Positions 1 through 12,941 of a stretch of DNA of 15,577 bases are shown piece after piece. The notes below the pieces were generated by a model. That model was not told the origin of the DNA. It saw only the letters and a program-made list of their open reading frames with translations, and did no database searches. Each line of letters starts with the position of its first letter. Positions within the stretch are counted from its first letter, which is position 1. A program made the position numbers and the translations under genes. The DNA comes from an uncultured Bacilli bacterium (GTDB lineage Bacteria > Bacillota_I > Bacilli_A > RF39 > UBA660), in the NCBI GenBank assembly GCA_947631035.1, contig CANRJW010000030.1:1-15577 (forward strand), in the 5' to 3' direction.

Positions 1-96
1 TTATTATCACATCATCGGTTCCTGAAATTTTGATGGTAAATTGGAATAACTGTCACATTTGTATTATAATTGCACATCAAAAAAGAAGATGTTAAA

Positions 97-116
97 AAAG
101 AAGATTACTCTTCTTT
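97..116 (-). terminator. Weak AT-rich hairpin overlapping the stop codon of the Rpn gene, followed by a T-run on the minus strand
   Basis: AAAGAAGA (97-104) and TCTTCTTT (109-116) are perfect 8-bp complements around a 4-nt loop. The minus strand reads AAAGAAGA-GTAA-TCTTCTTT-TTTAAC. Confidence 0.35.
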
Positions 117-968
117 CAACTTTTGTATTTCTTCTAGAGTCAATCCTGTTGCTTCTGAGATTTGTTCTGCTGTAATAACTCCTAATTGAAGTAACTTCTT
201 AGCTGTAGAAATATAAGCTTGCTTTTCGCCCTCTTCTTTACCTTCTCGTATTCCAGTATTTTTTGCATCTACTAATTCTTGTCTATGCTTTTCTTCTATA
301 TCATAATATCCTGAAAATTCTGGATCAGTACTCAATTCTTTTACTGTTCTTACAACTGCCATATATATTTCGTCTCCTTTATATTTGCTTTCTAATTCTT
401 CTATTTTTCTTTTTTCATAAATAAATTCTGCAAATTTCTTTATCTCTTTAGATATATTATAGGAACTATTGATACAATTTTCAAGAATTAAATGAATGCT
501 TTTATATAGTTCATTTTCTATATGTCCTTCTTCATCTCTTATTAGAAATGTAAGTAATGGCTTTTTTGTTTTAAAGGCATTAAAATTATCTATATTAATT
601 AAAATAAACTTTTGATACAGTGTATCTCCAGCATTTGTATTTTCTACAATTCTACTCATTACATACATACTATTTTTCGGAAATATGACATCAGTCTTAT
701 ATTGATTCATTTCTACGATAATTTGTTGTTCATCATTTACTTTTACTGTAACATCGGTTGATTGCTTCTTTTCGTTTATATTTTTTTTATTGATTTCTTC
801 TCCTCCGATATAGGTAGCATTTTCTAAATATTCCTTTTTTATTCCTGTTAATGCATTTAATATACCAACAGCAAATTTTCTCGTTTTCGGACTTGTCATA
901 ATGACTTTAAATAAAGCATCATTTTTAAAATTTGGATTGTCAAAATATACCTTTCGTTTTTTAACCAA
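105..968 (-). CDS. Rpn family recombination-promoting nuclease / PD-(D/E)XK putative transposase (YhgA-like)
   Basis: N-terminal NDALFKVIM...ILNALTG motif, a D...VEMNQ PD-(D/E)XK-like core, and the typical C-terminal helical tail (AKKLLQLGVITAEQISEATGLTLEEIQKL). I place the start at TTG 968..966, 10 nt after AGGAGG (984..979). The tracked longer start at 1061 overlaps the predicted promoter. Confidence 0.85.
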   Translation of the reverse strand: MVKKRKVYFDNPNFKNDALFKVIMTSPKTRKFAVGILNALTGIKKEYLENATYIGGEEINKKNINEKKQSTDVTVKVNDEQQIIVEMNQYKTDVIFPKNSMYVMSRIVENTNAGDTLYQKFILINIDNFNAFKTKKPLLTFLIRDEEGHIENELYKSIHLILENCINSSYNISKEIKKFAEFIYEKRKIEELESKYKGDEIYMAVVRTVKELSTDPEFSGYYDIEEKHRQELVDAKNTGIREGKEEGEKQAYISTAKKLLQLGVITAEQISEATGLTLEEIQKLKEE

Positions 969-995
969 AACTTTTTTACCTCCTTTCCGAAAGGC

Positions 996-1024
996 ACTAT
1001 AGCAAAGAAAAAAATAACTTGCAA
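996..1024 (-). promoter_or_regulatory. Sigma-70/SigA-type promoter for the Rpn gene
   Basis: On the minus strand: TTGCAA (1024..1019), a 17-nt spacer, then TGcTATAGT (extended -10; hexamer 1001..996). This sits about 20 nt upstream of the SD. Confidence 0.6.
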
Positions 1025-1025
1025 A

Positions 1026-1039
1026 TAACAAATTTGTTA
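1026..1039. promoter_or_regulatory. Perfect 14-bp palindrome TAACAAATTTGTTA abutting the -35 box; candidate operator
   Basis: The sequence is self-complementary as read directly. It lies 1 nt upstream of the -35 of the Rpn promoter. Two 9-bp direct repeats (AATTTTCAA at 1049-1057 and 1061-1069) follow it. Confidence 0.4.
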
Positions 1040-1096
1040 AATTGAAACAATTTTCAAGCAAATTTTCAATAGAAAAAGATAAATTGTTGCCACAAT

Positions 1097-1276
1097 TTAC
1101 CTTTTTTGAGCTAATTTCGATAAAATTAGTATATTTTTAAAAATTTTTACTTTTTTTTCTAATTTTATTTTATTAACTCCTACTTCATATCTAAAATATT
1201 GTTGTTGGGTCATACCTATTTTGGCTAATTCCTTTTGTGATAATCCACAAGAGTTTTTTATTTCTAAGGATTGCAT
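1097..1276 (-). CDS. Small XRE/Cro-C1-type helix-turn-helix protein (59 aa), not in the supplied ORF track
   Basis: Hand translation gives MQSLEIKNSCGLSQKELAKIGMTQQQYFRYEVGVNKIKLEKKVKIFKNILILSKLAQKR*. The GLSQKELAK-IGMTQQQYFRYEVG segment fits the HTH_3 pattern. The ATG at 1276 lies 3 nt after the TAA (1282..1280) of the upstream gene, and no SD is visible. Confidence 0.6.
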   Translation of the reverse strand: MQSLEIKNSCGLSQKELAKIGMTQQQYFRYEVGVNKIKLEKKVKIFKNILILSKLAQKR

Positions 1277-1279
1277 AGG

Positions 1280-2776
1280 TTATTCTACGGCAAGGACAAC
1301 ACGAAAACCATCCCAGACATTCGCTGAACCTTTGTAAAACTCGAAATTAAACACTCCAGCACCTGTTCCCTCTCCATTCCAACCACCACGGAGTACCCAA
1401 GGGCCAGTCGAACTATAAAAGTCGGCGTAATCTCCCCACATCGAACTTATATAATGACTATTAGATAACACAAATGGACCAACTTCGCCGGTAGCATCTC
1501 CAAGTATCCTTCTATCCCAATGTGTTTGATCGGTATAATAAGAATATACATCATAATATCTTAAATCATCGAAATCAGTAGTTGATAATTCACTTGACTC
1601 CCACATTGGCATTCTATTTTGACTATCTAACATAACACTGGCGGTCTGTTCCCAAGATCCTCCACTCATATCATAAACACCACCATAATTTCCGGTTGTA
1701 CTTGCTGATTGAGCATTATCTAATCCTCCATAGGCTGTATTCCCTGTGTATCCTGTCATAAATCCACTATGAGTATTAAGAGACACTTCAGTACATTGAT
1801 TTGTTTTCTTATCGCATCTACCATATATACTTTGTGTTAAATAAGCTACTGCTCCCCATTCCGTATTTTTGATTAAATGACTTTGTAAGTCTGGTTTATA
1901 GTTTTTGGAATTTCTAAAAGAATATGCTATTGTAATAGTTCTCAAACTTGTTACATTTGGTTTTATTCGAATCCCATTATCGTTACTCGCTTCAAACTTG
2001 CCGACCCATAAACCATTTCCTCTAAAGGCTAAAAACGCTGGATGCGTCATCCACTCTTGATAATCACAATTTCCACTTCCTCCAGACTCACCTTGGACTT
2101 CATTATTTAACATCGGCGTTTTGCAAGTTGATTCTCCATTTATTTCTCCATCATCGGTTGTATTATCTAGTCCAAATTTTATTTCTATTGCTAAATTATC
2201 TTTGCTTTCTATTTGAGTCGCTTCTGCATACTTTCCTAATTCTTTATCAAATAACTTATAACTATATTTCGGTATCCATACAAAATAACTTTCTATCCAA
2301 CCCTCTTCTATCTGATTACCTGGTTCAATAGTTTGAGCTTTTCCTGTTGCATTTAATATGACTGCATTTGCCCATCTTTGTTCCTCATAACTATACCATG
2401 CATCGTATAAATTGGCTTTCGTTACTTTTCCATTCTCTCCAATTTCTACTGGTACTAATTCTTCATTTTCATCGAATGCAGGATAGGCTCCATGTAACAT
2501 ATCTTCTGTATACAATTTTGTAAAATCTATATTACATTTTATTTTACTTGCGTTTTTAGGATTTTTTATATGTTCTAAATTCCATTCATAATTGTTCCAT
2601 TCCGCTGTAACATCTTCTTCACATTGTACATCTTGTACGAGATAACCACTATTTCGATTTGGAAAACTTCCACTTACTTTTTCTTTATTTACTGTAAAAG
2701 CTAAGGTTATATCTCCACTCGAAAAATCCGGTACCGTTCCTTTTAATACATCAAATGTTTTTCTTTCTTCATACAT
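1280..2776 (-). CDS. Surface protein with a C-terminal divergent FGE-sulfatase/SUMF1-like (C-type-lectin-fold) domain. It is the 3' part of a gene whose real start is ATG 2969 and which is frameshifted at the G10 tract.
   Basis: FGE-like motifs: TEWGAVAYL, NYGGVYDMSGGSWEQ, VLRGGWNG and a terminal DGFRVVL. There is no SD before ATG 2776. The same frame stays open upstream to 2965 and encodes a TM helix (IIIGSIITIVLIIGGISLY). Confidence 0.7.
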   Translation of the reverse strand: MYEERKTFDVLKGTVPDFSSGDITLAFTVNKEKVSGSFPNRNSGYLVQDVQCEEDVTAEWNNYEWNLEHIKNPKNASKIKCNIDFTKLYTEDMLHGAYPAFDENEELVPVEIGENGKVTKANLYDAWYSYEEQRWANAVILNATGKAQTIEPGNQIEEGWIESYFVWIPKYSYKLFDKELGKYAEATQIESKDNLAIEIKFGLDNTTDDGEINGESTCKTPMLNNEVQGESGGSGNCDYQEWMTHPAFLAFRGNGLWVGKFEASNDNGIRIKPNVTSLRTITIAYSFRNSKNYKPDLQSHLIKNTEWGAVAYLTQSIYGRCDKKTNQCTEVSLNTHSGFMTGYTGNTAYGGLDNAQSASTTGNYGGVYDMSGGSWEQTASVMLDSQNRMPMWESSELSTTDFDDLRYYDVYSYYTDQTHWDRRILGDATGEVGPFVLSNSHYISSMWGDYADFYSSTGPWVLRGGWNGEGTGAGVFNFEFYKGSANVWDGFRVVLAVE

Positions 2777-2900
2777 AGCAAAACTTCGGTATAAACTTAT
2801 ACCTCCGATTATTAATACAATTGTTATTATACTTCCGATTATAATATTTTTTTGTTTTTTATTTTTATTAAATCGCTTTAAGTCCTCTGGTTTCTTATTA

Positions 2901-2969
2901 TTATCTAATATACCCCCCCCCCAGACGACTATTTCGCTTGGTTGGGAGGTTCTTTTTGAAATTATTCAT
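2901..2969 (-). pseudogene. 5' fragment of the surface-protein gene (22 codons), terminated by frameshift after the G10 tract
   Basis: GGAGGAG (2984..2978), 8 nt, then ATG 2969. It reads MNNFKKNLPTKRNSRLGGGYIR followed by TAA TAA TAA. Removing one G fuses it in frame to the 498-aa ORF. Confidence 0.7.
2913..2922 (-). repeat. Homopolymer C10 on plus (G10 on the coding strand); candidate slipped-strand contingency tract
   Basis: Ten consecutive C at 2913-2922 in AT-rich sequence, starting at nt 48 of the CDS that begins at 2969. Confidence 0.9.
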
Positions 2970-2997
2970 TTCTCTTTCTCCTCCATATCTTAATCTA

Positions 2998-3026
2998 ATT
3001 CTACACTTTTTTTGAAGTTTTGACAA
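2998..3026 (-). promoter_or_regulatory. Promoter of the frameshifted surface-protein gene
   Basis: On the minus strand: TTGTCA (3026..3021), a 17-nt spacer, then TAGAAT (3003..2998). This sits about 6 nt upstream of the SD. Confidence 0.5.
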
Positions 3027-3032
3027 GATAGC

Positions 3033-3064
3033 AAAAAAAGAAATCTATGGTCATATAGATTCTG
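3033..3064 (-). terminator. Rho-independent terminator after ttcA
   Basis: AATCTAT (3042-3048) pairs with ATAGATT (3055-3061) around a 6-nt loop and is extendable with a bulge. On the minus strand it is followed by a T7 run (complement of 3033-3039). Confidence 0.6.
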
Positions 3065-3077
3065 TTTTTAAGTATTT

Positions 3078-3905
3078 CTATTTATCATATTCTTCTAAAA
3101 AAGAATGTTTTTCATCATCTTTTCGATAACCTAAAATGCAATTCATATTGATATTATGCATGCTCTTAAAAATGTTATCGTCAATATCCTTTTCTTCTTT
3201 ACGTAGTGTATTAATTAATTTTTTCATTTCAAGGCGTTTGCTTGTTCCATCATCATTAATACTGCAACTTTCTGTAAAACGACAAGCGCAATTAATAAAA
3301 TGTAAATCATTATACTTTGCCCAGGATAAAATAGAATTTTCTTTCACTAAATAAAGTGGTCTTATTAACTCTAATCCGGGAAAATTATCACTATAAAGTT
3401 TTGGCATCATGGTCTTAATTTCAGCACCATAAAACATGGATAATAAAGTAGTTTCAATTACATCATCAAAATGATGCCCCAAAGCAATTTTATTACAACC
3501 TAGTTCTTGTGCCTTATTATAAAGGTGTCCTCTGCGCATTCTAGCACATAAGTAGCAAGGATTTCCTTCTGTTAAAGAACTTACAACATCAAAAATATCG
3601 GTTTCAAACATTTCAATCGGAACATTTAGTATTTTGGCATTTTCTAAGATTTTCTTTTTATTTTCTTCATTATAACCAGGGTTCATAACAACAAAAGAAG
3701 CATCAAAATGAATCTTTCCATGCTTTTTTAATTCTTGAATGCATTTGGCTAGTAAAAAGGAATCCTTTCCTCCACTAATGCAGACCATAATCTTGTCATT
3801 TTCTTTGATAAGTTCATAATCTTTAACTGCTTTGATAAAACGACTCCAAATTTCTTTACGATATGTTTTAATAATACTTCTTTCTACTTCTTGATACTTT
3901 TCCAC
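3078..3905 (-). CDS. ttcA: PP-loop ATPase of the TtcA family (tRNA 2-thiocytidine-type thiolase)
   Basis: SGGKDS PP-loop, the CYLCARMRRGHLY motif and a further Cys cluster (NCACRFTESC). GTG start at 3905 with GAAGG upstream. Confidence 0.8.
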   Translation of the reverse strand: MEKYQEVERSIIKTYRKEIWSRFIKAVKDYELIKENDKIMVCISGGKDSFLLAKCIQELKKHGKIHFDASFVVMNPGYNEENKKKILENAKILNVPIEMFETDIFDVVSSLTEGNPCYLCARMRRGHLYNKAQELGCNKIALGHHFDDVIETTLLSMFYGAEIKTMMPKLYSDNFPGLELIRPLYLVKENSILSWAKYNDLHFINCACRFTESCSINDDGTSKRLEMKKLINTLRKEEKDIDDNIFKSMHNINMNCILGYRKDDEKHSFLEEYDK

Positions 3906-3919
3906 AAAAACTACCTTCT

Positions 3920-4255
3920 TTATTTAAAATACTCTTCTTCGATTAAGGGTGTAATCATAATAACTGGTTCTTCATAAGGATGAACTTCACGAATTTTAGT
4001 TAGTAACCTTTTTACAATAGAAACTGGACAAATCACTTCTATTTTTTCTTCTTCTACTGTTTTAAACACATTTTTTTCTCCAATAAAAGGAGTTGCATTT
4101 TCATTCGGTTTAAAAGTTCCACTACATTTTGTTATTACACTACAACAATTATAATTGCCAATCTTTCCTGCTCCAATTTCAAATAAAGCATCACGAACTT
4201 TTTCTGTGTACTCTAATGGAACATTAATGGCAATTTTTACTTTTGAAAAAGTCAT
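3920..4255 (-). CDS. Small alpha/beta protein resembling the stand-alone Nif3/YqfO insert (PII/CutA-like) domain; function unknown
   Basis: The pattern VKIAINVP...V..ALFEIGAGKIGNY..CS....G.F.P...A.PFIGE......VEE.KIEV.C, recognised from memory. GAGGTGA SD before ATG 4255. Confidence 0.45.
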   Translation of the reverse strand: MTFSKVKIAINVPLEYTEKVRDALFEIGAGKIGNYNCCSVITKCSGTFKPNENATPFIGEKNVFKTVEEEKIEVICPVSIVKRLLTKIREVHPYEEPVIMITPLIEEEYFK

Positions 4256-4315
4256 ATTTTTTCACCTCTTCTTATTCTAGCACAAGTTTCAAAATTTTTT
4301 GCTACTTTTTGTAAT

Positions 4316-4660
4316 TTATGAAAATAAATCTAGTTTTATTCCTACAACGCCATATTGTTCTTGTTTTTCTTTGGGATAAAATTGTTCTAAAGTATTCTTT
4401 AATTCTTCTTTGGTCATCCTTTCATCGGCGAGTAAAGAAATGGGAAAATCGTTCAATAGTTCTTCAAAAGTATTATACTTTAATAAGTCTATCACTTTGG
4501 CTTGAAAAGATTCTTGTAATTCAGGTTCTTTTAAAAATGTAATGGTATCTCCTATTTTAATTTTTTGTCTTTTTTCATCCAAAAGACGAAGTTCGATTCT
4601 TTTGGTACCAAAACGAATAAAATCATAGTATTTTGGTTGTAATTTCATTTCATGTGTCAT
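4316..4660 (-). CDS. ASCH (PUA-like) domain protein
   Basis: MKLQPKYYDFIRFGTKRIELRLLDEKRQKIKIGDTITF is typical of ASCH. ATG 4660 is preceded by GGAAAGGA. The alternative start at 4699 overlaps the nrdG stop (ATGA). Confidence 0.75.
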   Translation of the reverse strand: MTHEMKLQPKYYDFIRFGTKRIELRLLDEKRQKIKIGDTITFLKEPELQESFQAKVIDLLKYNTFEELLNDFPISLLADERMTKEELKNTLEQFYPKEKQEQYGVVGIKLDLFS

Positions 4661-4695
4661 ATATTTTTTTCCTTTCCTTTTATATGAAAAAAACT

Positions 4696-5205
4696 TCATA
4701 CCGTTTGAAGTTCATTTTCATATAATATAATTTTTTTAGTTTTTAATGACTTTTGGACATCAATTACTCTTTGATTGGAAGAACCTCGCCATGCAAGCAT
4801 AGGATTATGAAGTTCATCCATATATTGACCATCCACTAACACATCAATATATTTTAAAACTTCTTTTTCTTTCAAGTCTCGATCAAAGAGAAATCCACTC
4901 CAAACCCATAAAGTTTTTTGGGGGAATTTTTCTTTAAAAGCACGAGCAAGTTTTAAAGTTCCTTCGATATTATTGGGATGCATCGGTTCTCCTCCTAATA
5001 TTGATAAACCAGCAATATACTCTTTTCCACATAAATCTAAGATATGCTCTATTGTTTCGTCGGTAAATTCACGTCCCCCATTAAAATCATGGGTTTCGGG
5101 ATTAAAGCAATTCTTGCAATGAAAAGCACATCCTTGCATAAAAATAGATATACGAACCCCCGGACCATTAGCAATATCCATTTTTCTTATTTTATTGTAA
5201 CGCAT
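4696..5205 (-). CDS. nrdG: Anaerobic ribonucleoside-triphosphate reductase activating protein (radical SAM)
   Basis: The GCAFHCKNCFNPETH cluster, its size, and its position 2 nt downstream of nrdD. Confidence 0.95.
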   Translation of the reverse strand: MRYNKIRKMDIANGPGVRISIFMQGCAFHCKNCFNPETHDFNGGREFTDETIEHILDLCGKEYIAGLSILGGEPMHPNNIEGTLKLARAFKEKFPQKTLWVWSGFLFDRDLKEKEVLKYIDVLVDGQYMDELHNPMLAWRGSSNQRVIDVQKSLKTKKIILYENELQTV

Positions 5206-5207
5206 AT

Positions 5208-7367
5208 TTATTCCTCGTCATCTTTGTTATCAATGTGAATAACTCTTTCTTTAATTTCTTGGGTTCTTCCTTTATTCCAGAAGTTTGCTCCAATATAACC
5301 ACATGTACGTCTTGCTACATTCATTTTGTCATGGTCTCTATTTCCACAATTTGGGCAATACCACTCAAGGTTATCGTCGATTAAAATTTCTCCGGTGTAA
5401 CCACATTCATGGCAATAATCCAATTTGGTATTTAATTCCGCATACATAATATTATCATAAATAAACTTAATAACTTCTATAACTGCATTCAAGTTGTTGC
5501 TTAAATTTGGGGTTTCAATATAAGAAATAGCACCACCTGGACTTAAGTTTTGGAATTCAGCTTCTAATTTTAATTTGGTAAAAGCATCAATTTCTTCAAA
5601 AACTGGAACATGATAACTATTGGTAATATAGTCTCGGTCTGTAATGCCTTTAATAACACCAAAACGTTCTCTTAAAGCTTTCGCAAATTTATAAGTTGTG
5701 GATTCAATTGGGGTACCATAAACACTATAATCGATATCCTCTTCTTCTTTCCATTTTTTACAAGCATCATTTAAGTGTCTCATGACTTCTAGACCAAATT
5801 CCTTACCTACACCATTATCCGTATGACTATGTCCAGTCATAAATTTAACGCATTCATATAGACCGGCATATCCTAAAGAAATCGTTGAGTAACCATGGTG
5901 CAATAATTCGTGAATAGACTCTCCTTTTTTTAGTCTGGCAAGAGCTCCGTATTGCCAAAGAATTGGGGCAACATCACTTGTTGCTTTACTAAGTCTTTTA
6001 TGACGAATTTGTAAAGCACGGTGGCAAAGTTCTAGTCTTTCGTCAAAGACTTTCCAGAACAAATCCATATCTTTATCACTTGTTAAGGCAACATCTACTA
6101 AGTTAATCGTCACAACTCCTTGATTGAAACGTCCATAATATTTTGGTTTTCCATTTTCATCAACATACGGAGTCAAGAAGCTTCGACATCCCATACAAGG
6201 ATAGCAGTTTCCATTACCATTTTTATCAATTTTTAATTGTTTCATAATTTTTTCAGAAATATAGTCTGGTACCATACGTTTTGCAGTACATTCTGCGGCA
6301 AGTTTTGTTAAATACCAGTATTTGCTATTTTCATGAATATTGTCTTCTTCTAGAACGTATAAAAGTTTTGGGAAAGCTGGTGTAATATAAACGCCTTTTT
6401 CGTTTTTCATTCCTTCAATTCTTTGTTTTAAAACTTCTTCAATAATCATGGCAAGTTCTTCTTTGTATTCTTCTGTTTCTCCTAAATACATGCAAACACT
6501 TAAAAAAGGAGCTTGACCATTTGTTGTCGTCATCGAATTAATTTGATATTGGAATGTTTGAACACCATCTGTAATTTCTTTTGCTAAATCTTCTTTAGCA
6601 TATTTTTCACAATCTTCTTTAGAAAATTTACGTTTTTTGTACTTTTCTAAATATTTTTTATAACTATCTCTTACGAAAGGGGCTAAATGCGTAAGGGTGA
6701 TTGTGCATCCGCCATATTGGCTCGAATTGACTGCGGTGATTAATTGGGTTGCAATGGTCATGGCAGTCAAAAAGCGATGCGGTTTTTCAATCATAACACC
6801 ATTAATGTTGGTTCCATTTTGAAGCATATCTTCTAAGTTAATTAAATCACAATTGTGTAGGGCATTTTGGGCAAAATAATCGGCATCATGAAAATGAATA
6901 ATTCCTTCATCATGAGCACGAACAATATCTTCTGGAAGTAAAAATCTTCTGGTAATATCGGTACTCGTAATACCTGCTAAATAATCTCTTTGGGTTGTAA
7001 CAACTTTAGCATTTTTATTGGAATTTTCAGTATTCCAATACTCGTTTTCTCCATCGATTAATTCCTTTATGGCTAAATCAGTGGTATTGCTTTTTCTTAC
7101 CAATTCTCTTGTATAACGATAGGTAATATATTTTTTGGCAAGTTCATATTTTCCAATTGCCATTAACTTTTTTTCAATAATATCTTGAATGTCTTCCACA
7201 AGCATTCTTTTCTTACCTAAATTTTCAATATACTTAATAATATTTTTAATTTGCGTACTACTTGCTTGCTCTTCTTCCTCAACTTCTTTGTTTGCTTTCA
7301 TAATTGCATTCTCGATTTTTTCTGGGCTATAATCAACCATATGGCCATCTCTTTTAATAATTTTCAT
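5208..7367 (-). CDS. nrdD: Anaerobic ribonucleoside-triphosphate reductase (class III)
   Basis: N-terminal ATP-cone (MKIIKRDGHMVDYSPEKI), a C-terminal Zn ribbon (CHECGY...CPNCG) and the glycyl-radical motif RRTCGYIG. I place the start at ATG 7367 after AAGGAG. The tracked start at 7448 runs through the promoter region. Confidence 0.96.
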   Translation of the reverse strand: MKIIKRDGHMVDYSPEKIENAIMKANKEVEEEEQASSTQIKNIIKYIENLGKKRMLVEDIQDIIEKKLMAIGKYELAKKYITYRYTRELVRKSNTTDLAIKELIDGENEYWNTENSNKNAKVVTTQRDYLAGITSTDITRRFLLPEDIVRAHDEGIIHFHDADYFAQNALHNCDLINLEDMLQNGTNINGVMIEKPHRFLTAMTIATQLITAVNSSQYGGCTITLTHLAPFVRDSYKKYLEKYKKRKFSKEDCEKYAKEDLAKEITDGVQTFQYQINSMTTTNGQAPFLSVCMYLGETEEYKEELAMIIEEVLKQRIEGMKNEKGVYITPAFPKLLYVLEEDNIHENSKYWYLTKLAAECTAKRMVPDYISEKIMKQLKIDKNGNGNCYPCMGCRSFLTPYVDENGKPKYYGRFNQGVVTINLVDVALTSDKDMDLFWKVFDERLELCHRALQIRHKRLSKATSDVAPILWQYGALARLKKGESIHELLHHGYSTISLGYAGLYECVKFMTGHSHTDNGVGKEFGLEVMRHLNDACKKWKEEEDIDYSVYGTPIESTTYKFAKALRERFGVIKGITDRDYITNSYHVPVFEEIDAFTKLKLEAEFQNLSPGGAISYIETPNLSNNLNAVIEVIKFIYDNIMYAELNTKLDYCHECGYTGEILIDDNLEWYCPNCGNRDHDKMNVARRTCGYIGANFWNKGRTQEIKERVIHIDNKDDEE

Positions 7368-7396
7368 ACTACTTACACTCCTTCTACCATACCCAA

Positions 7397-7405
7397 AGTA
7401 TAGCA
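7397..7405 (-). promoter_or_regulatory. Extended -10 element (TGcTATACT) of the predicted nrdDG promoter
   Basis: The minus strand reads TGCTATACT at 7405..7397. There is no good -35, consistent with an activator-dependent promoter. Confidence 0.45.
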
Positions 7406-7423
7406 CCACCCAAATCTTTTTAA

Positions 7424-7441
7424 ATGTTGCATTTGCAACAT
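7424..7441. promoter_or_regulatory. Perfect inverted repeat ATGTTGCA-TT-TGCAACAT (CRP-format TGTTG-N6-CAACA); candidate Crp/Fnr operator shared by divergent promoters
   Basis: The 8-bp arms are exact complements. The repeat is centred about 42.5 nt upstream of the predicted nrdD TSS. Its right arm overlaps the -35 (TTGCAA, 7433-7438) of the regulator promoter. Confidence 0.5.
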
Positions 7442-7461
7442 TTTGCATTTTTTTGTATAAT
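7433..7461 (+). promoter_or_regulatory. Promoter of the Crp/Fnr regulator gene
   Basis: TTGCAA (7433-7438), a 17-nt spacer, then TATAAT (7456-7461). The SD GAGGTGG follows at 7470-7476. Confidence 0.5.
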
Positions 7462-7479
7462 TATTTTGTGAGGTGGAAA

Positions 7480-8145
7480 ATGGTAAAACTTTTTGACGGC
7501 ATAAATCCTAGAAATCGTGAAAAATTAGAAAAAATTTTTGAGACACAAACTTTACATGTCAAAAAAAATACATCTATTTTAAAATCGATTCACGGGGATA
7601 ATTTAATTGGCTATGTTTTAAATGGTTACTTAGAAATAATCAAAAACGATTCCAATGGAAATAAAACTATTTTTGAAGAAATTTATGATGAAGACACTTT
7701 TAATACTTCTCTTTTAACTTTCAATCGTGGTGAATATGACATTCTAGCTAAAGAAGATTCTTCTATTTTATTAATTGACTATGAAAGTATTATCGAAGAA
7801 AAAGAAATTACCAAAGATTATTATTTGCAATTTATCAAAAATTTACTGGAAATTACCATTGCCAAAGGAAAAGAAAAAAATGAACGCATTGAAATACTAA
7901 CGAAGAAAACGATTCGCAATCGGCTTTTGGAGTATTTTAGTATTGCCTCTAATAAGCATGGTTCAAAATTTATTTATCTTCCTTTTAATTTTACCGATTT
8001 GGCAGATTATTTAGCCATTGATCGTTGTGCTATGACTCGTGAACTTAAAAATTTAAAGGAAGAAGGTTTTATTGAAATCAAAGGAAAAAGAATAACTCTT
8101 CTTTATGAAAAATATTCTTCTTCTGACCCTTTAATCAACATTTAA
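7480..8145 (+). CDS. Crp/Fnr family transcriptional regulator
   Basis: An N-terminal cNMP-binding-like beta-barrel and a C-terminal HTH (FTDLADYLAIDRCAMTRELKNLKEEGFI). ATG 7480 follows GAGGTGG. The tracked TTG start at 7453 lies inside the promoter. Confidence 0.88.
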   Translation: MVKLFDGINPRNREKLEKIFETQTLHVKKNTSILKSIHGDNLIGYVLNGYLEIIKNDSNGNKTIFEEIYDEDTFNTSLLTFNRGEYDILAKEDSSILLIDYESIIEEKEITKDYYLQFIKNLLEITIAKGKEKNERIEILTKKTIRNRLLEYFSIASNKHGSKFIYLPFNFTDLADYLAIDRCAMTRELKNLKEEGFIEIKGKRITLLYEKYSSSDPLINI

Positions 8146-8320
8146 TTTTTTCTTAACGAACGGACCAATTGCTCTACATTTTTATATTCTAAAAGCATCT
8201 TTGAAAAAGCATAAGCAATCGAAGCATTACGACTACCACTTAAACAAAAGGAAAAAAATCGAAATAAAAAATAATTCTTAAAATATCAAACAAGAGTAAT
8301 TTTGAGAGTAAAAATATTAA

Positions 8321-8343
8321 AATCCCTTCATTTAAAAGGGATT
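8321..8343 (-). terminator. Hairpin terminator downstream of tRNA-Glu
   Basis: AATCCCTT (8321-8328) pairs with AAGGGATT (8336-8343) around a 7-nt loop. On the minus strand it is followed by TTAATATTTTT. Confidence 0.5.
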
Positions 8344-8355
8344 CATAAACATAAT

Positions 8356-8432
8356 TGGTAGCCTGTACGGGTTTCGAACCCGTGAATACCACCTTGAGAG
8401 GGTGGCGTGTTAAACCCCTTCACCAACAGGCC
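8356..8432 (-). tRNA. tRNA-Glu, anticodon CUC, CCA encoded
   Basis: A 77-nt cloverleaf folded by hand: acceptor GGCCTGT/ACAGGCT (G1-U72 wobble), anticodon stem CCACC/GGTGG with loop CTCTCAA, and T-arm ACGGG-TTCGAAA-CCCGT. The overall sequence closely resembles Firmicutes tRNA-Glu. Confidence 0.88.
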
Positions 8433-8462
8433 AAGAAAAAGTGTTCCATTTTTTGGTAACAC
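8433..8462 (-). terminator. Terminator after the phosphodiester glycosidase gene, directly abutting the tRNA 5' end
   Basis: The minus strand reads GTGTTACCA-AAAAA-TGGAACAC (8 bp with one bulge) followed by TTTTTCTT. That T-run ends at 8433, one nt before tRNA position 1. Confidence 0.5.
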
Positions 8463-8484
8463 TATTAGTCTATCATAAAATTTT

Positions 8485-9780
8485 TTATTTGACAATAAAA
8501 GAACTTACAATCGGTCTTGTCACATGAGACCCGCTTCCATTTACAATGTCATTGATATAGCAATACTCTTTCAGACAATGACTTTTCATCTCTTTTTCCG
8601 TAATGTATTTGCTAGCTTCACTTTTAGGCAAAACTAAAACCGTAGAAGTTCCACCATCTAAATTGGCAGCATTGATAGCACCATAATTTTCTAAAACATT
8701 CGTTAAATCAAGCATAGTTGCTCCTGGAACTGTTACTTTTCTACCATCAAGAACTAAAAGCAAAACAATTCCATCTTCTCTTTGACCAATGGCAGTTCTA
8801 GGGGCATTTCCCCAACCTCCATTTCCTTTAATAATACTTCTTTTTCCGTTCACGATTAAAAATGGTCCAAAAGTAACAGCATCGCGAACCTTTTTTTCTT
8901 TGGCTTCTTTAGCACTCATCTTACCTAAAATCAACTTGTTATCTTCTGTAAAACCAATAAGTCCACCTGAACGATCATAGCCTTTATCAGATAGAACTTC
9001 GCCGTTTTGAATTAAAACCCCTTCAGGAGTTCCCCCACTTCCTTTTTTATTTGGGTCCGAAAATCCTCCTCCATTTACTGCTATTAATGCTTGATAATTT
9101 GCAGCCATTTCTGTGACATATTCTCCGCGGTTTCCTAAATACTTGGTGGTAGCAACCGCTATTCTAGATGGGTCATAAACGACCGCCATATATCCTTCAT
9201 AATTTTTACCAGAAATCGGAATAATTTTATAATCTGCATGAATGTCGTCTACTGTAAAAATTTCTTTTTCGTATTCATTTTCATAATGATCTTTATTAAA
9301 ATTTTTTCGTATTTCAATTAAATCCAAGTTGGTTTCTTCATCGATTTCAAATATTTGATTCTCCTCTAATACTTTTTTTATTTCTTCTTTACTATAAAAC
9401 CAAGTTGCAAGATAGCGATGGTTCATTGTAGTCATAGCAGAAGGTATCAAAAAAGAACGAAAACCTCCCCAAGGGCCATATAGGAAAAATAAAAATGTAC
9501 TGGCTCCCAATATTTCGAACCCCACAATGATTGAAAATACGATTTTTTTCTTTTTTGATATTTTTTTATCCTTTTCTTCTTTTTTGCTTTTAAACAAAAG
9601 AACAATTCCTAAAATTAAAAAAGAAAGTGCTATAAAACTCATTAAAAATAAAATATAATGTACCCACTTCACAACCAGTTCATGACTATGAAAACCAATC
9701 ATTAAAAATACCAATAAAACTGGTATTAAAATACTTGTAATGGTTACCAAAATACACCCTTTTTTATATTTTTCTTTCAT
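8485..9780 (-). CDS. Membrane-anchored phosphodiester glycosidase family protein (DUF2233/NAGPA-like)
   Basis: N-terminal TM helices, then GGGF, PRTAIGQREDG..LLLVLDGR and NLDGGTSTVL motifs. ATG 9780 follows AAGGA. The tracked start at 9789 is a TTG. Confidence 0.8.
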   Translation of the reverse strand: MKEKYKKGCILVTITSILIPVLLVFLMIGFHSHELVVKWVHYILFLMSFIALSFLILGIVLLFKSKKEEKDKKISKKKKIVFSIIVGFEILGASTFLFFLYGPWGGFRSFLIPSAMTTMNHRYLATWFYSKEEIKKVLEENQIFEIDEETNLDLIEIRKNFNKDHYENEYEKEIFTVDDIHADYKIIPISGKNYEGYMAVVYDPSRIAVATTKYLGNRGEYVTEMAANYQALIAVNGGGFSDPNKKGSGGTPEGVLIQNGEVLSDKGYDRSGGLIGFTEDNKLILGKMSAKEAKEKKVRDAVTFGPFLIVNGKRSIIKGNGGWGNAPRTAIGQREDGIVLLLVLDGRKVTVPGATMLDLTNVLENYGAINAANLDGGTSTVLVLPKSEASKYITEKEMKSHCLKEYCYINDIVNGSGSHVTRPIVSSFIVK

Positions 9781-11288: not shown

Positions 11289-12941
11289 TTATTTTGCAAT
11301 CATTTTGTCGAATCTTGTCAAAACTTTTTCGCTTCCTAAAATTTGCATGATACTGTATAAATCTGGTGTAGTTGTAAGAGAGGTTAAAGTAAGACGAATG
11401 ATGTTGGTGACATCCACAATGCTTCCTTTATAAGGGGTTGGGTCTTCCTTATATTCTTTCATGTTTGTCGCATAGCCTAAGTTTTCACACATCTCTTTTA
11501 TTTTATTAAACCACTCTTCTTGAGTATCCTTCTCGTTATAAAGACTCTTGTACGTTGTTAAAATCTTTTTTACTTCTTCTACATCATATTCTAAAAAATC
11601 AATTTTAGAACTATCAAAGTATTCGTCATACATATACCAAGTTTTTTCTTTGATTTCCCCAAAATATGTATAGTCTTTACGAGGTTTCTTTTGTTCTCTT
11701 TCAATATTATAGATAGCCATAGAATATTCTTTGTATTTGGTTAAGAGTTCGTAAAATTCTGAATCGTATTTTTGACTCCAAGAAAGAACGCCTTCATAAA
11801 CTTCTTCTTTGGTTAAACGACTGATATAGTTTTTAGAAATATTGTCTAGTTTATCTAAATCGAATAAAGCTCCACTTGCACTCATCTTTTTGGGCGAAAA
11901 AGGAAATTCGGTGAAACTAGAGGTAGGATGTCCTTCTCTCCAGGCTTCGTAATTAGAGTTGGCAATCGTCATAATGGCTTCAATTAAAGCATAAGCAGGA
12001 TACCCTTTTTCTTCATAGTAACTCATTCGGGCTTCCGGATCCAAACGTTTGGAAATTTTACGAACGCTATCCCCGTCCTTTTTTAGAATTAAAGGAATAT
12101 GAATGTATTTAGGCATTGGAAAGCCAAAGGTTTTAAATAATTCATAGTGAATTGGTACGGAACTTATCCACTCTTGACCACGAACAACATGGGTTGTGTG
12201 CATTAAATGATCATCTACCAAATGAGCAAAATGATAGGTTGGAAGTCCATCTTTACTTTTCATAATTGGAATGTCCAAATCATTTTCCGGTAGTTCCATT
12301 TCACCAAAGGCTAAATCATTAAATTTAAACTTACGATTAAAGTCTCCACTACTTTTTAAACGGATGGTGTAAGCTTCCCCATTTTTAATACGTTCTATGG
12401 CTTCTTCAACTGGTAAATCACGATATTTCGCGTATCTTCCATAAATACCAATTCTTCTTTTATCTCTAGCTTGCCCCTCACGAATAACATCTATTTCTTC
12501 TTGAGTTAGAAAACAAGGATAGGCTTTTCCTTCTTTAATCAAATGTTTAATGAAGGCTTGATAAATTTCTTTTCTTTCCGATTGAATGTAAGGAGCATAA
12601 ATACCTTTTGTCTCATTGGTATCGCGATATTCGTATTCGTCTGGTTCCATATGATAATGTTCTAAAATATGACGAATAAATTCCATCGCTCCTTCCACTT
12701 CCCGAGCGGTATCCGTATCTTCATTTCTTAAGTAAAAAATACCATTACTATTTTTCGCAAGTACATAAGAAATCGTAACTGCTAGGAAATTCCCAATATG
12801 CATAAATCCTGTAGGACTTGGGGCATATCTGGTTACTCTTGCATTCTCTTCTAAATTTCTTGCTGGATAGAGTTTTTCATAGTCTTCTACTGTTTTCGTT
12901 ATATTAGGAAATAAAAATTCTGCTAGGTCTTCTCTATTCAT
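11289..12941 (-). CDS. gltX: Glutamate--tRNA ligase, long (550 aa) form
   Basis: Bacterial GluRS signatures: RYAPSPTGFMHIGN (HIGH-type), LRNEDTD and KISKR (KMSKS-type). Confidence 0.88.
   Translation of the reverse strand: MNREDLAEFLFPNITKTVEDYEKLYPARNLEENARVTRYAPSPTGFMHIGNFLAVTISYVLAKNSNGIFYLRNEDTDTAREVEGAMEFIRHILEHYHMEPDEYEYRDTNETKGIYAPYIQSERKEIYQAFIKHLIKEGKAYPCFLTQEEIDVIREGQARDKRRIGIYGRYAKYRDLPVEEAIERIKNGEAYTIRLKSSGDFNRKFKFNDLAFGEMELPENDLDIPIMKSKDGLPTYHFAHLVDDHLMHTTHVVRGQEWISSVPIHYELFKTFGFPMPKYIHIPLILKKDGDSVRKISKRLDPEARMSYYEEKGYPAYALIEAIMTIANSNYEAWREGHPTSSFTEFPFSPKKMSASGALFDLDKLDNISKNYISRLTKEEVYEGVLSWSQKYDSEFYELLTKYKEYSMAIYNIEREQKKPRKDYTYFGEIKEKTWYMYDEYFDSSKIDFLEYDVEEVKKILTTYKSLYNEKDTQEEWFNKIKEMCENLGYATNMKEYKEDPTPYKGSIVDVTNIIRLTLTSLTTTPDLYSIMQILGSEKVLTRFDKMIAK

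What the first reader, a model, noticed from the sequence alone, without database searches (positions are those of the whole stretch)
2901..2969. G10 homopolymer at nt 48 of a surface-protein gene breaks the frame: candidate phase-variation switch, currently OFF
A complete expression signal is visible on the minus strand: TTGTCA-17-TAGAAT, GGAGGAG, 8 nt, then ATG 2969. After 16 codons a run of ten G (2922..2913) is read. With 10 G the frame hits TAA TAA TAA at 2903..2895. With 11 G it hits TAG at 2907..2905. With 9 (or 12) G it reads MNNFKKNLPTKRNSRLGGGILDNNKKPEDLKRFNKNKKQKN-IIIGSIITIVLIIGGISLY-RSFA and runs straight into the tracked 498-aa ORF. That restores a cytoplasmic basic stub and a signal-anchor helix, which the tracked ORF lacks. 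The tracked ATG 2776 has no SD. A 10-nt G/C homopolymer is very unusual in sequence this AT-rich. Its placement early in a surface-protein CDS is the classic contingency-locus architecture.
Basis: partly seen in the sequence, partly recalled or inferred. Interest (0 to 1): 0.8.

Follow-up and report, generated by a model that had tools for sequence, protein, structure and literature searches.

The report
Poly-G on/off switch in surface-protein gene
A run of ten G's just after the start codon of a membrane-anchored surface-protein gene puts the gene out of frame, and the same switch cassette recurs, mostly OFF and occasionally ON, in front of many surface-protein genes in this group of uncultured gut Bacilli, so it is a classic slippage-based phase-variation switch in a lineage where none has been described.

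Summary
A G10 tract on the minus strand (2922..2913) sits 16 codons after an ATG with its own promoter and Shine-Dalgarno site. G10 and G11 stop within 3-4 codons. G9 or G12 fuse the ATG to a 543-codon frame, giving a 562-aa N-in membrane-anchored protein.

The same 5' cassette (promoter, SD, ATG, AACCTCCCAAC, Gn, stops in both wrong frames) was found 25 more times in relatives' contigs (26 counting the window). Several copies come from the same strain population as the window. Lengths run G8-G11, with G10 the mode. The frame requirement differs between copies, and about one copy in 6-8 per genome is in frame, for example L067 (G9), L147 (G9) and L016 (G10). The segment between the tract and the annotated Met is under purifying selection.

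The protein has a C-type-lectin/FGE-like fold closest to a DGR variable protein. One homolog (L074) is a real DGR target.

Main caveat: three other assemblies of this very strain break at the cassette or inside the tract, at about 4x coverage. So G10 here, and any length heterogeneity at this locus, remain unconfirmed.

It is a new member of a well-known kind.

The parts
2998..3026 (-). Sigma-70-type promoter: TTGTCA (3026..3021), 17-nt spacer, TAGAAT (3003..2998).
   Evidence: scores it 10 of 12. The stretch TAGAATTAGATTAAGATATGGAGGAG is nearly identical in paralog cassettes L141, L142, L145 and L147.
2978..2984 (-). Shine-Dalgarno GGAGGAG, 8 nt upstream of ATG 2969.
   Evidence: Read directly. 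GGAGG is present at the same place in all 22 cassettes tabulated.
2901..2969 (-). Leader reading frame as assembled (G10, OFF): 22 codons MNNFKKNLPTKRNSRLGGGYIR plus stop TAA at 2903..2901.
2941..2951 (-). Conserved AACCTCCCAAC (codons N-L-P-T). Its CCUCCC is complementary to the G tract.
   Evidence: It is present in 21 of 22 cassettes; L001 has ATCCTCTCAAC. All 22 use Leu codon CTC, which makes up only 2.2% of Leu codons in the window's ORFs.
2912..2950 (-). Predicted stem-loop: ACCUCCC paired with the 3' part of the G tract, with a variable inner stem.
   Evidence: One search gives dG -26.2 kcal/mol and z -4.5. The same fold is predicted in all 20 distinct cassette sequences. No compensatory pairs could be scored, so its function is not established.
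2913..2922 (-). G10 homopolymer (C10 on the + strand): the proposed slippage tract. Lengths with n = 0 mod 3 (G9, G12) are ON.
   Evidence: The chance expectation is 0.0004 per window.
2895..2907 (-). Stop codons that close both OFF frames straight after the tract: TAG 2907..2905 (G11 frame) and TAA x3 2903..2895 (G10 frame).
   Evidence: The same arrangement is seen in the 22 cassettes tabulated, with stops within 1-4 codons in 21 and at 8 codons in one.
2777..2911 (-). 45 codons (ILDNNKKPEDLKRFNKNKKQKN-IIIGSIITIVLIIGGISLY-RSFA). They encode the basic cytoplasmic stub and the signal-anchor helix (coding 2860..2783) and are translated only in the ON state.
   Evidence: The frame is open. AlphaFold predicts a helix at residues 37-62. 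dN/dS is 0.12-0.57 against L141, L142 and L144.
1280..2776 (-). Annotated 498-aa ORF: the extracellular body of the protein, with beta-rich N-terminal domains and a C-terminal C-type-lectin/FGE-like domain.
   Evidence: The model has pLDDT 87.4. The best PDB match is 5vf4 TaqVP, a DGR variable protein, at E 9e-9. PF03781 matches below threshold in 9 of 17 members. The family has more than 6800 relatives.
1097..1276 (-). 59-aa Xre-type HTH gene that starts 4 nt after the surface gene's stop. It may be co-transcribed.
   Evidence: One search gives PF01381 at E 2e-6. Xre HTH genes also neighbour paralogs in L141, L142, L146 and L147.

Best explanation
The G10 tract is a simple-sequence contingency switch. 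Slipped-strand mispairing at replication changes the tract by one G at a time.

Only lengths divisible by three (G9, G12) join the promoter- and SD-equipped ATG 2969 to the 543 codons that follow. That yields a 562-aa type II (N-in) membrane protein. It has a basic cytoplasmic stub, one signal-anchor helix and an extracellular C-type-lectin/FGE-like ligand-binding domain of the kind used by DGR variable proteins. With G10 or G11 the ribosome stops 3-4 codons past the tract and no anchored protein is made.

The tract is part of a portable 5' cassette shared by many surface-protein genes in this lineage. Each copy switches independently, so a population displays different subsets of these proteins. 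The assembled state here is OFF.

Shown: the anatomy, the recurrence of the cassette, the differences in length and frame state between copies, the existence of in-frame alleles, selection on the ON-only segment, and the fold.

Inferred: that switching really happens at this locus, how fast, and what the protein binds.
For: - Anatomy was verified.
- The tract is far beyond chance. In the window, 0.0004 runs of 10 or more are expected. In 85 related loci (840 kb), 33 such runs were seen against 0.024 expected.
- The same cassette is present 25 more times in relatives' contigs, 26 counting the window. Lengths are G8 x1, G9 x2, G10 x22 and G11 x1.
- The length needed for ON differs between copies (n mod 3 = 0, 1 or 2) although most copies are G10.
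- Per genome or sample, about one copy is in frame:
  - Lapin-026__bin87: 1 of 8 (L067, G9).
  - Lapin-028__bin53: 1 of 6 (L016).
  - Sample ERZ27249325, which also holds a contig 100% identical to the window: of 6 cassettes besides the window locus, 1 is ON (L147:4812, G9), 4 are OFF and 1 is cut by the contig end.
- One locus is OFF in one sample and ON in another, through a 7-nt indel next to the tract (L142 vs L143).
- Among the 120 best protein hits, 4 read through the tract in frame. Another 19 are truncated or were called in the wrong frame.
- Both OFF frames are closed within 1-4 codons in 21 of 22 cassettes.
- dN/dS of the ON-only segment is 0.12-0.57.
- In other lineages the same protein family carries poly-G between the -35 and -10 promoter elements instead. 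This is independent evidence that the family is under selection for switchable expression.
- A narrow modal tract length has precedent. In AT-rich Campylobacter jejuni the mode is G9, and it is attributed to length-dependent insertion and deletion bias (PMC3401435).
Against: - No reads were available, so length heterogeneity at this locus is not demonstrated.
- Three other assemblies of the same strain end 28-62 nt before the tract or start inside it, at about 4x coverage. G10 in this window therefore rests on one assembly.
- The exact G9 and G12 products are absent from a 15-billion-protein collection.
- G10 accounts for 22 of 26 intragenic cassettes, a narrower spread than isolate genomes of known phase-variable species show. 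I attribute this to consensus calling of a modal length, but that is an inference.
- The two samples that cover paralog tract L142/L143:427 both show G10.
Confidence: 0.77

Rival explanations
1. Homopolymer miscall: the true tract at this locus is G9 (or G12) and the gene is simply in frame. G10 would then be an assembly or sequencing error at low coverage.
For: Other assemblies of the same strain have about 4x coverage. They break at the cassette or inside the tract, which shows this spot is hard to assemble.
Against: G10 recurs in 22 of 26 cassettes, from SPAdes, MEGAHIT and other assemblies of different hosts. These include copies where G10 is the in-frame length (L016, L021), while G8, G9 and G11 are also called. 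A systematic +1 error does not fit that pattern. Even if this locus were G9, it would still be a G9 tract in a switch cassette, so only the 'currently OFF' part would fall.
Confidence: 0.1
2. Programmed recoding rather than DNA-level switching: G10 is a fixed element. The full-length protein is made from a fraction of messages through RNA-polymerase slippage on the G/C run, or through ribosomal frameshifting helped by the CCUCCC:G-tract hairpin.
For: G10 is strikingly dominant. A conserved stem-loop pairs CCUCCC with the tract (z -4.5). The rare CTC codon is kept in all 22 cassettes. Transcriptional slippage on long homopolymers is established biology (my own knowledge: IS elements, endosymbiont poly-A tracts).
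Against: Cassettes with the same G10 need three different corrections (0, +1 and -1 nt), which no single frameshift signal can provide. G9 in-frame alleles and G8 and G11 alleles exist. No A-site stop or rare codon, or slippery heptamer with a downstream structure, is present. The hairpin shows no compensatory changes that could be scored. Slippage by RNA polymerase could still add leaky expression on top of DNA-level switching.
Confidence: 0.1
3. Fixed pseudogene: a dead surface-protein gene inactivated by a frameshift, with no switching.
For: As assembled, the gene is out of frame, and the annotated start ATG 2776 lacks an SD.
Against: The frame is intact for 543 codons after the tract. dN/dS is 0.30-0.42 over the body and 0.12-0.57 over the segment upstream of the annotated Met. 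The promoter, SD and ATG are intact. The identical architecture is conserved across many genes and species, with in-frame alleles.
Confidence: 0.03

Closest known systems
Campylobacter jejuni poly-G/C contingency loci (Bayliss et al. 2012, PMC3401435)
   Same: Both have intragenic G8-G11 tracts in a genome of about 30% G+C. ON/OFF works by frameshift. There is a narrow modal tract length (G9 there, G10 here), many independently switching loci per genome, and targets that are surface determinants.
   Different: Here the tract is part of a conserved, shared 5' cassette (promoter, SD, short leader, CCTCCC, tract, stops). The cassette is placed in front of a family of membrane-anchored proteins. 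In Campylobacter the tracts are scattered inside glycosyltransferase, flagellar-modification and similar genes. The host here is an uncultured gut lineage of Bacilli. Switching has not been measured here.
Neisseria opa genes (CTCTT repeats in the leader-peptide coding region of 11-12 paralogs; my own knowledge)
   Same: Both are multigene families of surface proteins. Each copy carries its own repeat in the N-terminal leader coding region. Each switches independently, and only a few copies are in frame at any time.
   Different: The repeat is a pentamer there and a homopolymer here. The product is an outer-membrane beta-barrel adhesin there and a single-pass CLec-fold protein here. The bacterial phyla differ.
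Mycoplasma variable surface protein systems (M. hyorhinis vlp promoter poly-A; M. hominis vaa and M. fermentans p78 intragenic poly-A; my own knowledge)
   Same: These are AT-rich relatives within the Bacilli/Mollicutes radiation. Surface-protein families have conserved 5' regions. Homopolymer tracts sit either in the promoter spacer or early in the coding sequence, and both placements are seen for the present family.
   Different: The tracts are poly-A there and poly-G here. The proteins are lipoproteins with signal peptidase II sites there and signal-anchor proteins here. No CCUCCC partner element is known in those systems.
DGR variable proteins with C-type-lectin fold (TaqVP 5vf4, TvpA, Mtd)
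   Same: 5vf4 is the best structural match, at E 9e-9. It is also the only PDB sequence match, and a weak one. A homolog 40% identical to the window protein (L074) is a real DGR target. It has a VR/TR pair with 15 of 15 mismatches at TR adenines, and an adjacent Avd-like gene and RT.
   Different: The window copy has no TR, no RT and no repeat of its 3' end within 15.6 kb. Here diversity comes from paralogs plus ON/OFF switching, not from retrohoming.

Membership tests
Simple-sequence-repeat contingency locus (phase-variable gene) | A repeat tract long enough to be hypermutable (homopolymer of about 8 or more). | tested here: met
   The tract is G10 at 2922..2913. The chance expectation is 0.0004.
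Simple-sequence-repeat contingency locus (phase-variable gene) | The tract is placed so that a one-unit change switches expression, by reading frame or promoter spacing. | tested here: met
   G9 and G12 are in frame. G10 and G11 stop within 3-4 codons. Signals for independent expression are present.
Simple-sequence-repeat contingency locus (phase-variable gene) | Tract length differs between strains, clones or paralogs, with both ON and OFF alleles. | tested here: inconclusive
   The feature is met among paralogs and relatives: lengths G8-G11, with ON alleles L067, L147:4812, L016, L021, L143:5824, P0018, P0068 and P0099. It was not testable at this exact locus. Other assemblies of the strain break at the tract, and the G9 and G12 products are not on record.
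Simple-sequence-repeat contingency locus (phase-variable gene) | High-frequency, reversible switching measured within a clonal population. | not testable with these tools
   This needs raw reads, amplicon sequencing or culture. The organism is known only from metagenome assemblies.
DGR variable (target) protein | A C-type-lectin-fold C-terminal domain that carries the variable region. | tested here: met
   The model has pLDDT 87.4. The top PDB match is 5vf4 TaqVP at E 9e-9. The homolog L074 carries its VR at the equivalent C-terminal position.
DGR variable (target) protein | A cognate template repeat with adenine-specific mismatches, and a DGR reverse transcriptase nearby. | tested here: not met
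   There is no repeat of the gene's 3' end and no RT ORF in the window. The feature is met in L074 (15 of 15 A-site mismatches, RT with IGNYTSQ and YMDD). A trans-acting DGR elsewhere in the genome cannot be excluded.
Pfam PF03781 FGE-sulfatase (SUMF1-like) domain | A sequence match above the Pfam gathering score. | tested here: not met
   The score is 15.7 bits against a cut-off of 23.3 (E 0.012). Sub-threshold matches occur in 9 of 17 members. Structural matches to EgtB and FGE are weak (E 0.008-0.08). This is a distant fold relative, not a member by sequence.

The most novel reading that the evidence does not exclude
G10 may be more than a mutational mode. The conserved pairing of the tract with an upstream CCUCCC (kept through a rare codon in all 22 cassettes tabulated) could be a functional hairpin. 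The cassette would then be a self-contained, recombination-spread switch module. The hairpin might tune slippage rate or direction. It might give programmed RNA-level slippage and so leaky expression. It might mask the SD-like poly-G from the ribosome. Together with DGR mutagenesis in sister lineages, this would be a two-tier diversification system for one receptor family, with one-of-many expression.
Probability: 0.12. Interest if true: 0.75.

Novelty: new member of a known kind. Interest (0 to 1): 0.5.

Why it matters
Phase variation by homopolymer slippage is textbook biology for a handful of cultured pathogens such as Campylobacter, Neisseria, Helicobacter, Haemophilus and Mycoplasma. Here the same logic appears, in highly regular form, in uncultured AT-rich gut Bacilli from rabbit, mouse, chicken and human MAGs.

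The features that stand out:
- A shared switch cassette is used by several surface-protein families.
- About one copy per genome is in frame.
- The main cargo is a C-type-lectin-fold protein family that in sister lineages is diversified by DGRs.

This suggests these poorly known commensals vary their surface ligand-binding repertoire under phage or host immune pressure.

There is also a practical annotation lesson. Gene callers truncate these genes or invent starts in the wrong frame, so the family's membrane anchor is routinely missed.

Tried and rejected
1. DNA of the closest NCBI homologs P0002-P0004 could not be fetched.
2. A metagenome scan for the window's own tract flanks found nothing.
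3. A broader scan, AACCTCCCAACN{12,22}GGGGGGG, gave 60 hits. All were chance matches in unrelated, mostly higher-GC environmental contigs.
4. An exact look-up of the G9 and G12 full-length products found neither in the collection.
5. Neighbour-gene look-ups did find the same strain in other samples, but every contig ends at the cassette or in the tract. There is therefore no independent tract length.
6. Rfam gave no match on the leader region, and no terminator-like site was found. The hairpin is not a known RNA family or a canonical attenuator.
7. RNAalifold on 18 cassettes gave no compensatory pairs, because the outer stem is invariant. The hairpin remains a conserved complementarity, not a proven structure.
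8. Internal initiation with poly-G acting as an SD was considered. It was rejected because no conserved start codon follows the tract in the ORF frame across cassettes.
9. A single programmed frameshift was rejected because cassettes with G10 need three different corrections.
10. A DGR in the window was looked for and not found: no VR/TR repeat and no RT.
11. An invertible-promoter switch was considered. No inverted repeats flank the promoter.
12. Pfam and NCBIfam gave no family above threshold for the protein.
13. Literature searches found no report of this system in these Bacilli.

Full report
**1. The observation**

- The promoter match TTGTCA-17-TAGAAT lies at 3026..2998 (10 of 12).
- GGAGGAG lies at 2984..2978, followed by 8 nt and then ATG 2969.
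- After 16 codons comes a run of ten G (2922..2913).
- With G10 the frame reads MNNFKKNLPTKRNSRLGGGYIR and meets TAA TAA TAA (2903..2895).
- With G11 it meets TAG (2907..2905).
- With G9 or G12 it reads ...RLGGG(G)ILDNNKKPEDLKRFNKNKKQKNIIIGSIITIVLIIGGISLYRSFA-MYEERK... and continues into the 498-aa ORF 1280..2776.
- ATG 2776 has no usable SD.

This is the only G/C run of 6 or more in the window. From base composition, 0.0004 runs of 10 or more are expected.

One addition: with G10 the long ORF's own frame stays open upstream through the tract to TGA 2968..2966, but it has no canonical start there. That is why gene callers give 498 aa here. In relatives they pick chance starts in that frame: 'MKIVVWGGG...' in P0003 and P0004, and a TTG in P0122.

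**2. The protein**

The G9 product (562 aa) has no Pfam or NCBIfam match above threshold. It belongs to a very large family, with more than 6800 hits.

An AlphaFold model built on 120 homologs is confident (pLDDT 87.4).
- Residues 1-36 form a disordered basic stub.
- Residues 37-62 form one long helix, the signal anchor.
- The rest is a beta-rich ectodomain.

Foldseek's best PDB match is 5vf4, the Thermus aquaticus DGR variable protein TaqVP (E 9e-9). Weak matches to EgtB, FGE and OvoA follow. Sequence profiles agree faintly: 5vf4 at E 0.2, and PF03781 below threshold in 9 of 17 members.

The family link to DGRs is real. In locus L074 a homolog 40% identical to the window protein (E 5e-89) ends in a 142-nt variable region. 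Its template repeat lies 352 nt downstream, and all 15 mismatches are at template adenines. An Avd-like ORF and a reverse transcriptase (IGNYTSQ, YMDD) follow.

The window itself has no template repeat and no RT. The gene therefore encodes an N-in, membrane-anchored, surface-exposed C-type-lectin-fold protein of the kind bacteria diversify.

**3. The tract is part of a recurrent cassette**

A profile scan of one genome per species found 577 or more relatives. All of the 80 best are in gut MAGs labelled uncultured Bacilli, Tenericutes or 'Ca. Scybalousia', from rabbit, mouse, chicken and human. Many MAGs hold many paralogs.

In those 80 loci plus five more fetched through ENA (840 kb in all), 33 G/C runs of 10 or more occur where 0.024 are expected. 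They fall into two architectures.

(a) The intragenic cassette, as in the window:
- It reads, in order: promoter, GGAGG, ATG, 13-16 codons containing AACCTCCCAAC (N-L-P-T), the Gn tract, then TATATTAGA-like sequence.
- That last sequence puts stops in both wrong frames within 1-4 codons in 21 of 22 copies.
- The basic stub and transmembrane helix follow.

(b) The promoter version, in other lineages of the same protein family:
- Poly-G (G9-G13) lies between a TTGAC -35 element and a TG-n-TAAAAT -10 element.
- It sits 55-110 nt upstream of the gene.

The intragenic cassette also precedes other surface-protein families. These include a DUF285 protein (L142:5831), a PF12810 glycine-rich protein (L147:4812) and a 'YLDSRKKPRLEKRLITS...' family (L005, L006, L065). 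Some paralogs have no tract and use their own promoter (P0005, P0008, P0011).

**4. Length and frame states**

Across the 26 intragenic cassettes the lengths are G8 x1, G9 x2, G10 x22 and G11 x1.

The length needed for the ON state is not the same everywhere. Most copies need n = 0 mod 3, so G10 is OFF. L016 and L021 need n = 1 mod 3, so G10 is ON. The two L020 copies need n = 2 mod 3.

In-frame copies are a minority in each genome.
- Lapin-026__bin87: 1 of 8 is in frame (L067, G9).
- Lapin-028__bin53: 1 of 6 is in frame (L016).
- Sample ERZ27249325: of 6 cassettes besides the window locus, 1 is ON (L147:4812, G9, gene called from the cassette ATG), 4 are OFF and 1 is cut by the contig end.

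That last sample also contains a contig 100% identical to window 2918..23. Those cassettes are therefore paralogs from the window's own strain population.

One locus is OFF in one sample and ON in another, through a 7-nt indel next to the tract (L142 vs L143).

Among the 120 best protein hits, four read through the tract in frame. One is P0018, whose leader MNSFKKNLPTKRNSRLGGG is almost the window's. Nineteen others start at the internal Met, inside the transmembrane helix, or in the wrong frame through the tract.

**5. The gene is not decaying**

The frame after the tract is intact for 543 codons.

dN/dS against four paralogs is 0.30-0.42 over the body. Over the 45 codons between the tract and Met65 it is 0.12-0.57 against three of them. 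Those 45 codons can only be translated when the tract is in the ON length.

Against L145 the 45-codon segment is nearly identical (dS 0.06), while the body has dS 1.06. The cassette is therefore being homogenised between paralogs, presumably by recombination.

**6. Why G10 so often?**

I considered whether G10 is a fixed functional element read by programmed slippage.

Against that:
- The same G10 needs three different corrections in different copies.
- G9 in-frame, G8 and G11 alleles exist.
- There is no recognisable frameshift site.

The simpler reading is that MAG consensus sequences report the modal tract length of a mixed population, and that the mode is set by length-dependent insertion and deletion bias. 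Exactly this was proposed for C. jejuni, which is also about 30% G+C and has a mode of G9 (PMC3401435). RNA-polymerase slippage could add leaky expression; I cannot exclude that.

**7. A conserved partner of the tract**

The leader folds so that ACCUCCC (2950..2944) pairs with the 3' part of the G tract around a variable inner stem.
- dG is -26.2 kcal/mol with z -4.5.
- The same fold is predicted for all 20 distinct cassette sequences.
- The Leu codon in AAC-CTC-CCA is CTC in 22 of 22 cassettes, although CTC is only 2.2% of Leu codons in the window's genes. The constraint is therefore at nucleotide level.
- Because the outer stem never varies, RNAalifold finds no compensatory pairs.
- Rfam has no match, and the site does not look like a terminator.

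Its role is open. It might tune slippage, mask an SD-like G run, or do something else.

**8. Caveats**

I had no reads. The strain in the window occurs in at least three other assemblies, and none of them crosses the tract.
- L148 is 100% identical to window 7905..2950 and ends 28 nt before the tract.
- L149 and L150 end at about 2984.
- L151 starts with six G inside the tract.
- Coverage in those assemblies is about 4x.

The breaks fit a repeated cassette, tract heterogeneity, or both, and they do not tell these apart. The call of G10 rather than G9 at this locus, and hence 'currently OFF', rests on one assembly. The exact G9 and G12 products are not in the protein collection.

**9. Verdict**

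This is a homopolymer contingency switch in the 5' coding region of a surface-protein gene.

The mechanism is a well-known kind, also seen in Campylobacter poly-G loci, Neisseria opa and Mycoplasma surface-protein families. I therefore rate it a new member of a known kind.

It gains interest from three things:
- the lineage, which is uncultured gut Bacilli with no prior report found;
- the modular cassette shared by several protein families, with roughly one-of-many copies ON;
- the cargo, a DGR-type lectin-fold protein.

Interest is 0.5. Confidence that it is a genuine phase-variation switch is about 0.77.

Noticed in passing
L074:5410-9712: A complete diversity-generating retroelement sits next to a family member. 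VR 7272-7413 forms the 3' end of the gene, and TR lies at 7624-7765 with 15 of 15 mismatches at TR adenines. Then come a 128-aa ORF resembling MutS domain I (7970..8356), an Avd-like ORF (8343..8699) and an RT (8684..9712). L018 has the same RT.
   Followed up: partly
L029:5943, L031:4579, L041:383, L043:95, L045:971, L049:5625, L058:5774, L061:3681 and 5943, L079:3378, L030:4587, L076:5934: In other MAG lineages the same protein family carries poly-G (G9-G13) between a TTGAC -35 element and a TG-n-TAAAAT-type -10 element. The resulting spacers are 19-22 nt, longer than the usual 17 nt optimum. The ON length and the logic of this promoter version are unresolved.
   Followed up: partly
L011:7879: A G8 tract lies inside a homolog of the small MutS-domain-I-like ORF that sits in the L074 DGR cassette (...LYLFRCGGGFYIFLADDAKK...). 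It is in frame as assembled. This may be a switchable DGR accessory gene.
   Followed up: no
L142:5815-5840 vs L143:5815-5833: The same locus differs between two samples by a 7-nt indel (GCCGTCT) directly 5' of a G10 tract. The downstream DUF285 surface-protein gene is out of frame in L142 and in frame in L143. This could be real variation or a low-coverage assembly difference.
   Followed up: partly
window 2950 and 2918; L148, L149, L150, L151: Independent assemblies of the same strain (100% identity) end 28-62 nt 5' of the tract or begin inside it. The cassette is a repeat of roughly 150 nt that is nearly identical between paralogs and breaks short-read assemblies.
   Followed up: yes
window 1097-1276 (-); L141:3856-4137 and 11558-11782; L146:2452-2892; L147:2666-2896: Small Xre-type HTH genes recur next to family genes. 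They lie divergently upstream of the paralogs without a tract, and directly downstream of the window gene. They may be conventional regulators of the non-switching copies.
   Followed up: no
window 2777-2969 vs L145:3162-3350: The 5' cassette and the stub/TM segment are nearly identical between paralogs (dS 0.06), while the gene bodies are highly diverged (dS about 1.06). This points to gene conversion or recombination of the switch module.
   Followed up: partly
window 105-1061 (-): This ORF is a PD-(D/E)XK family transposase/Rpn-like nuclease gene (PF12784, E 1.4e-11). It lies just downstream of the surface gene and the HTH gene, and the same arrangement is seen in L151.
   Followed up: no
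L077:5742: A G11 tract follows MENKYTNKHSS and precedes a prepilin-like leader (HFTKLESFTL...). L074's family member has a type IV pilin-like N-terminus (GFTLIELL) instead of the basic stub and TM helix, so the family uses at least two kinds of membrane anchor or export signal.
   Followed up: no
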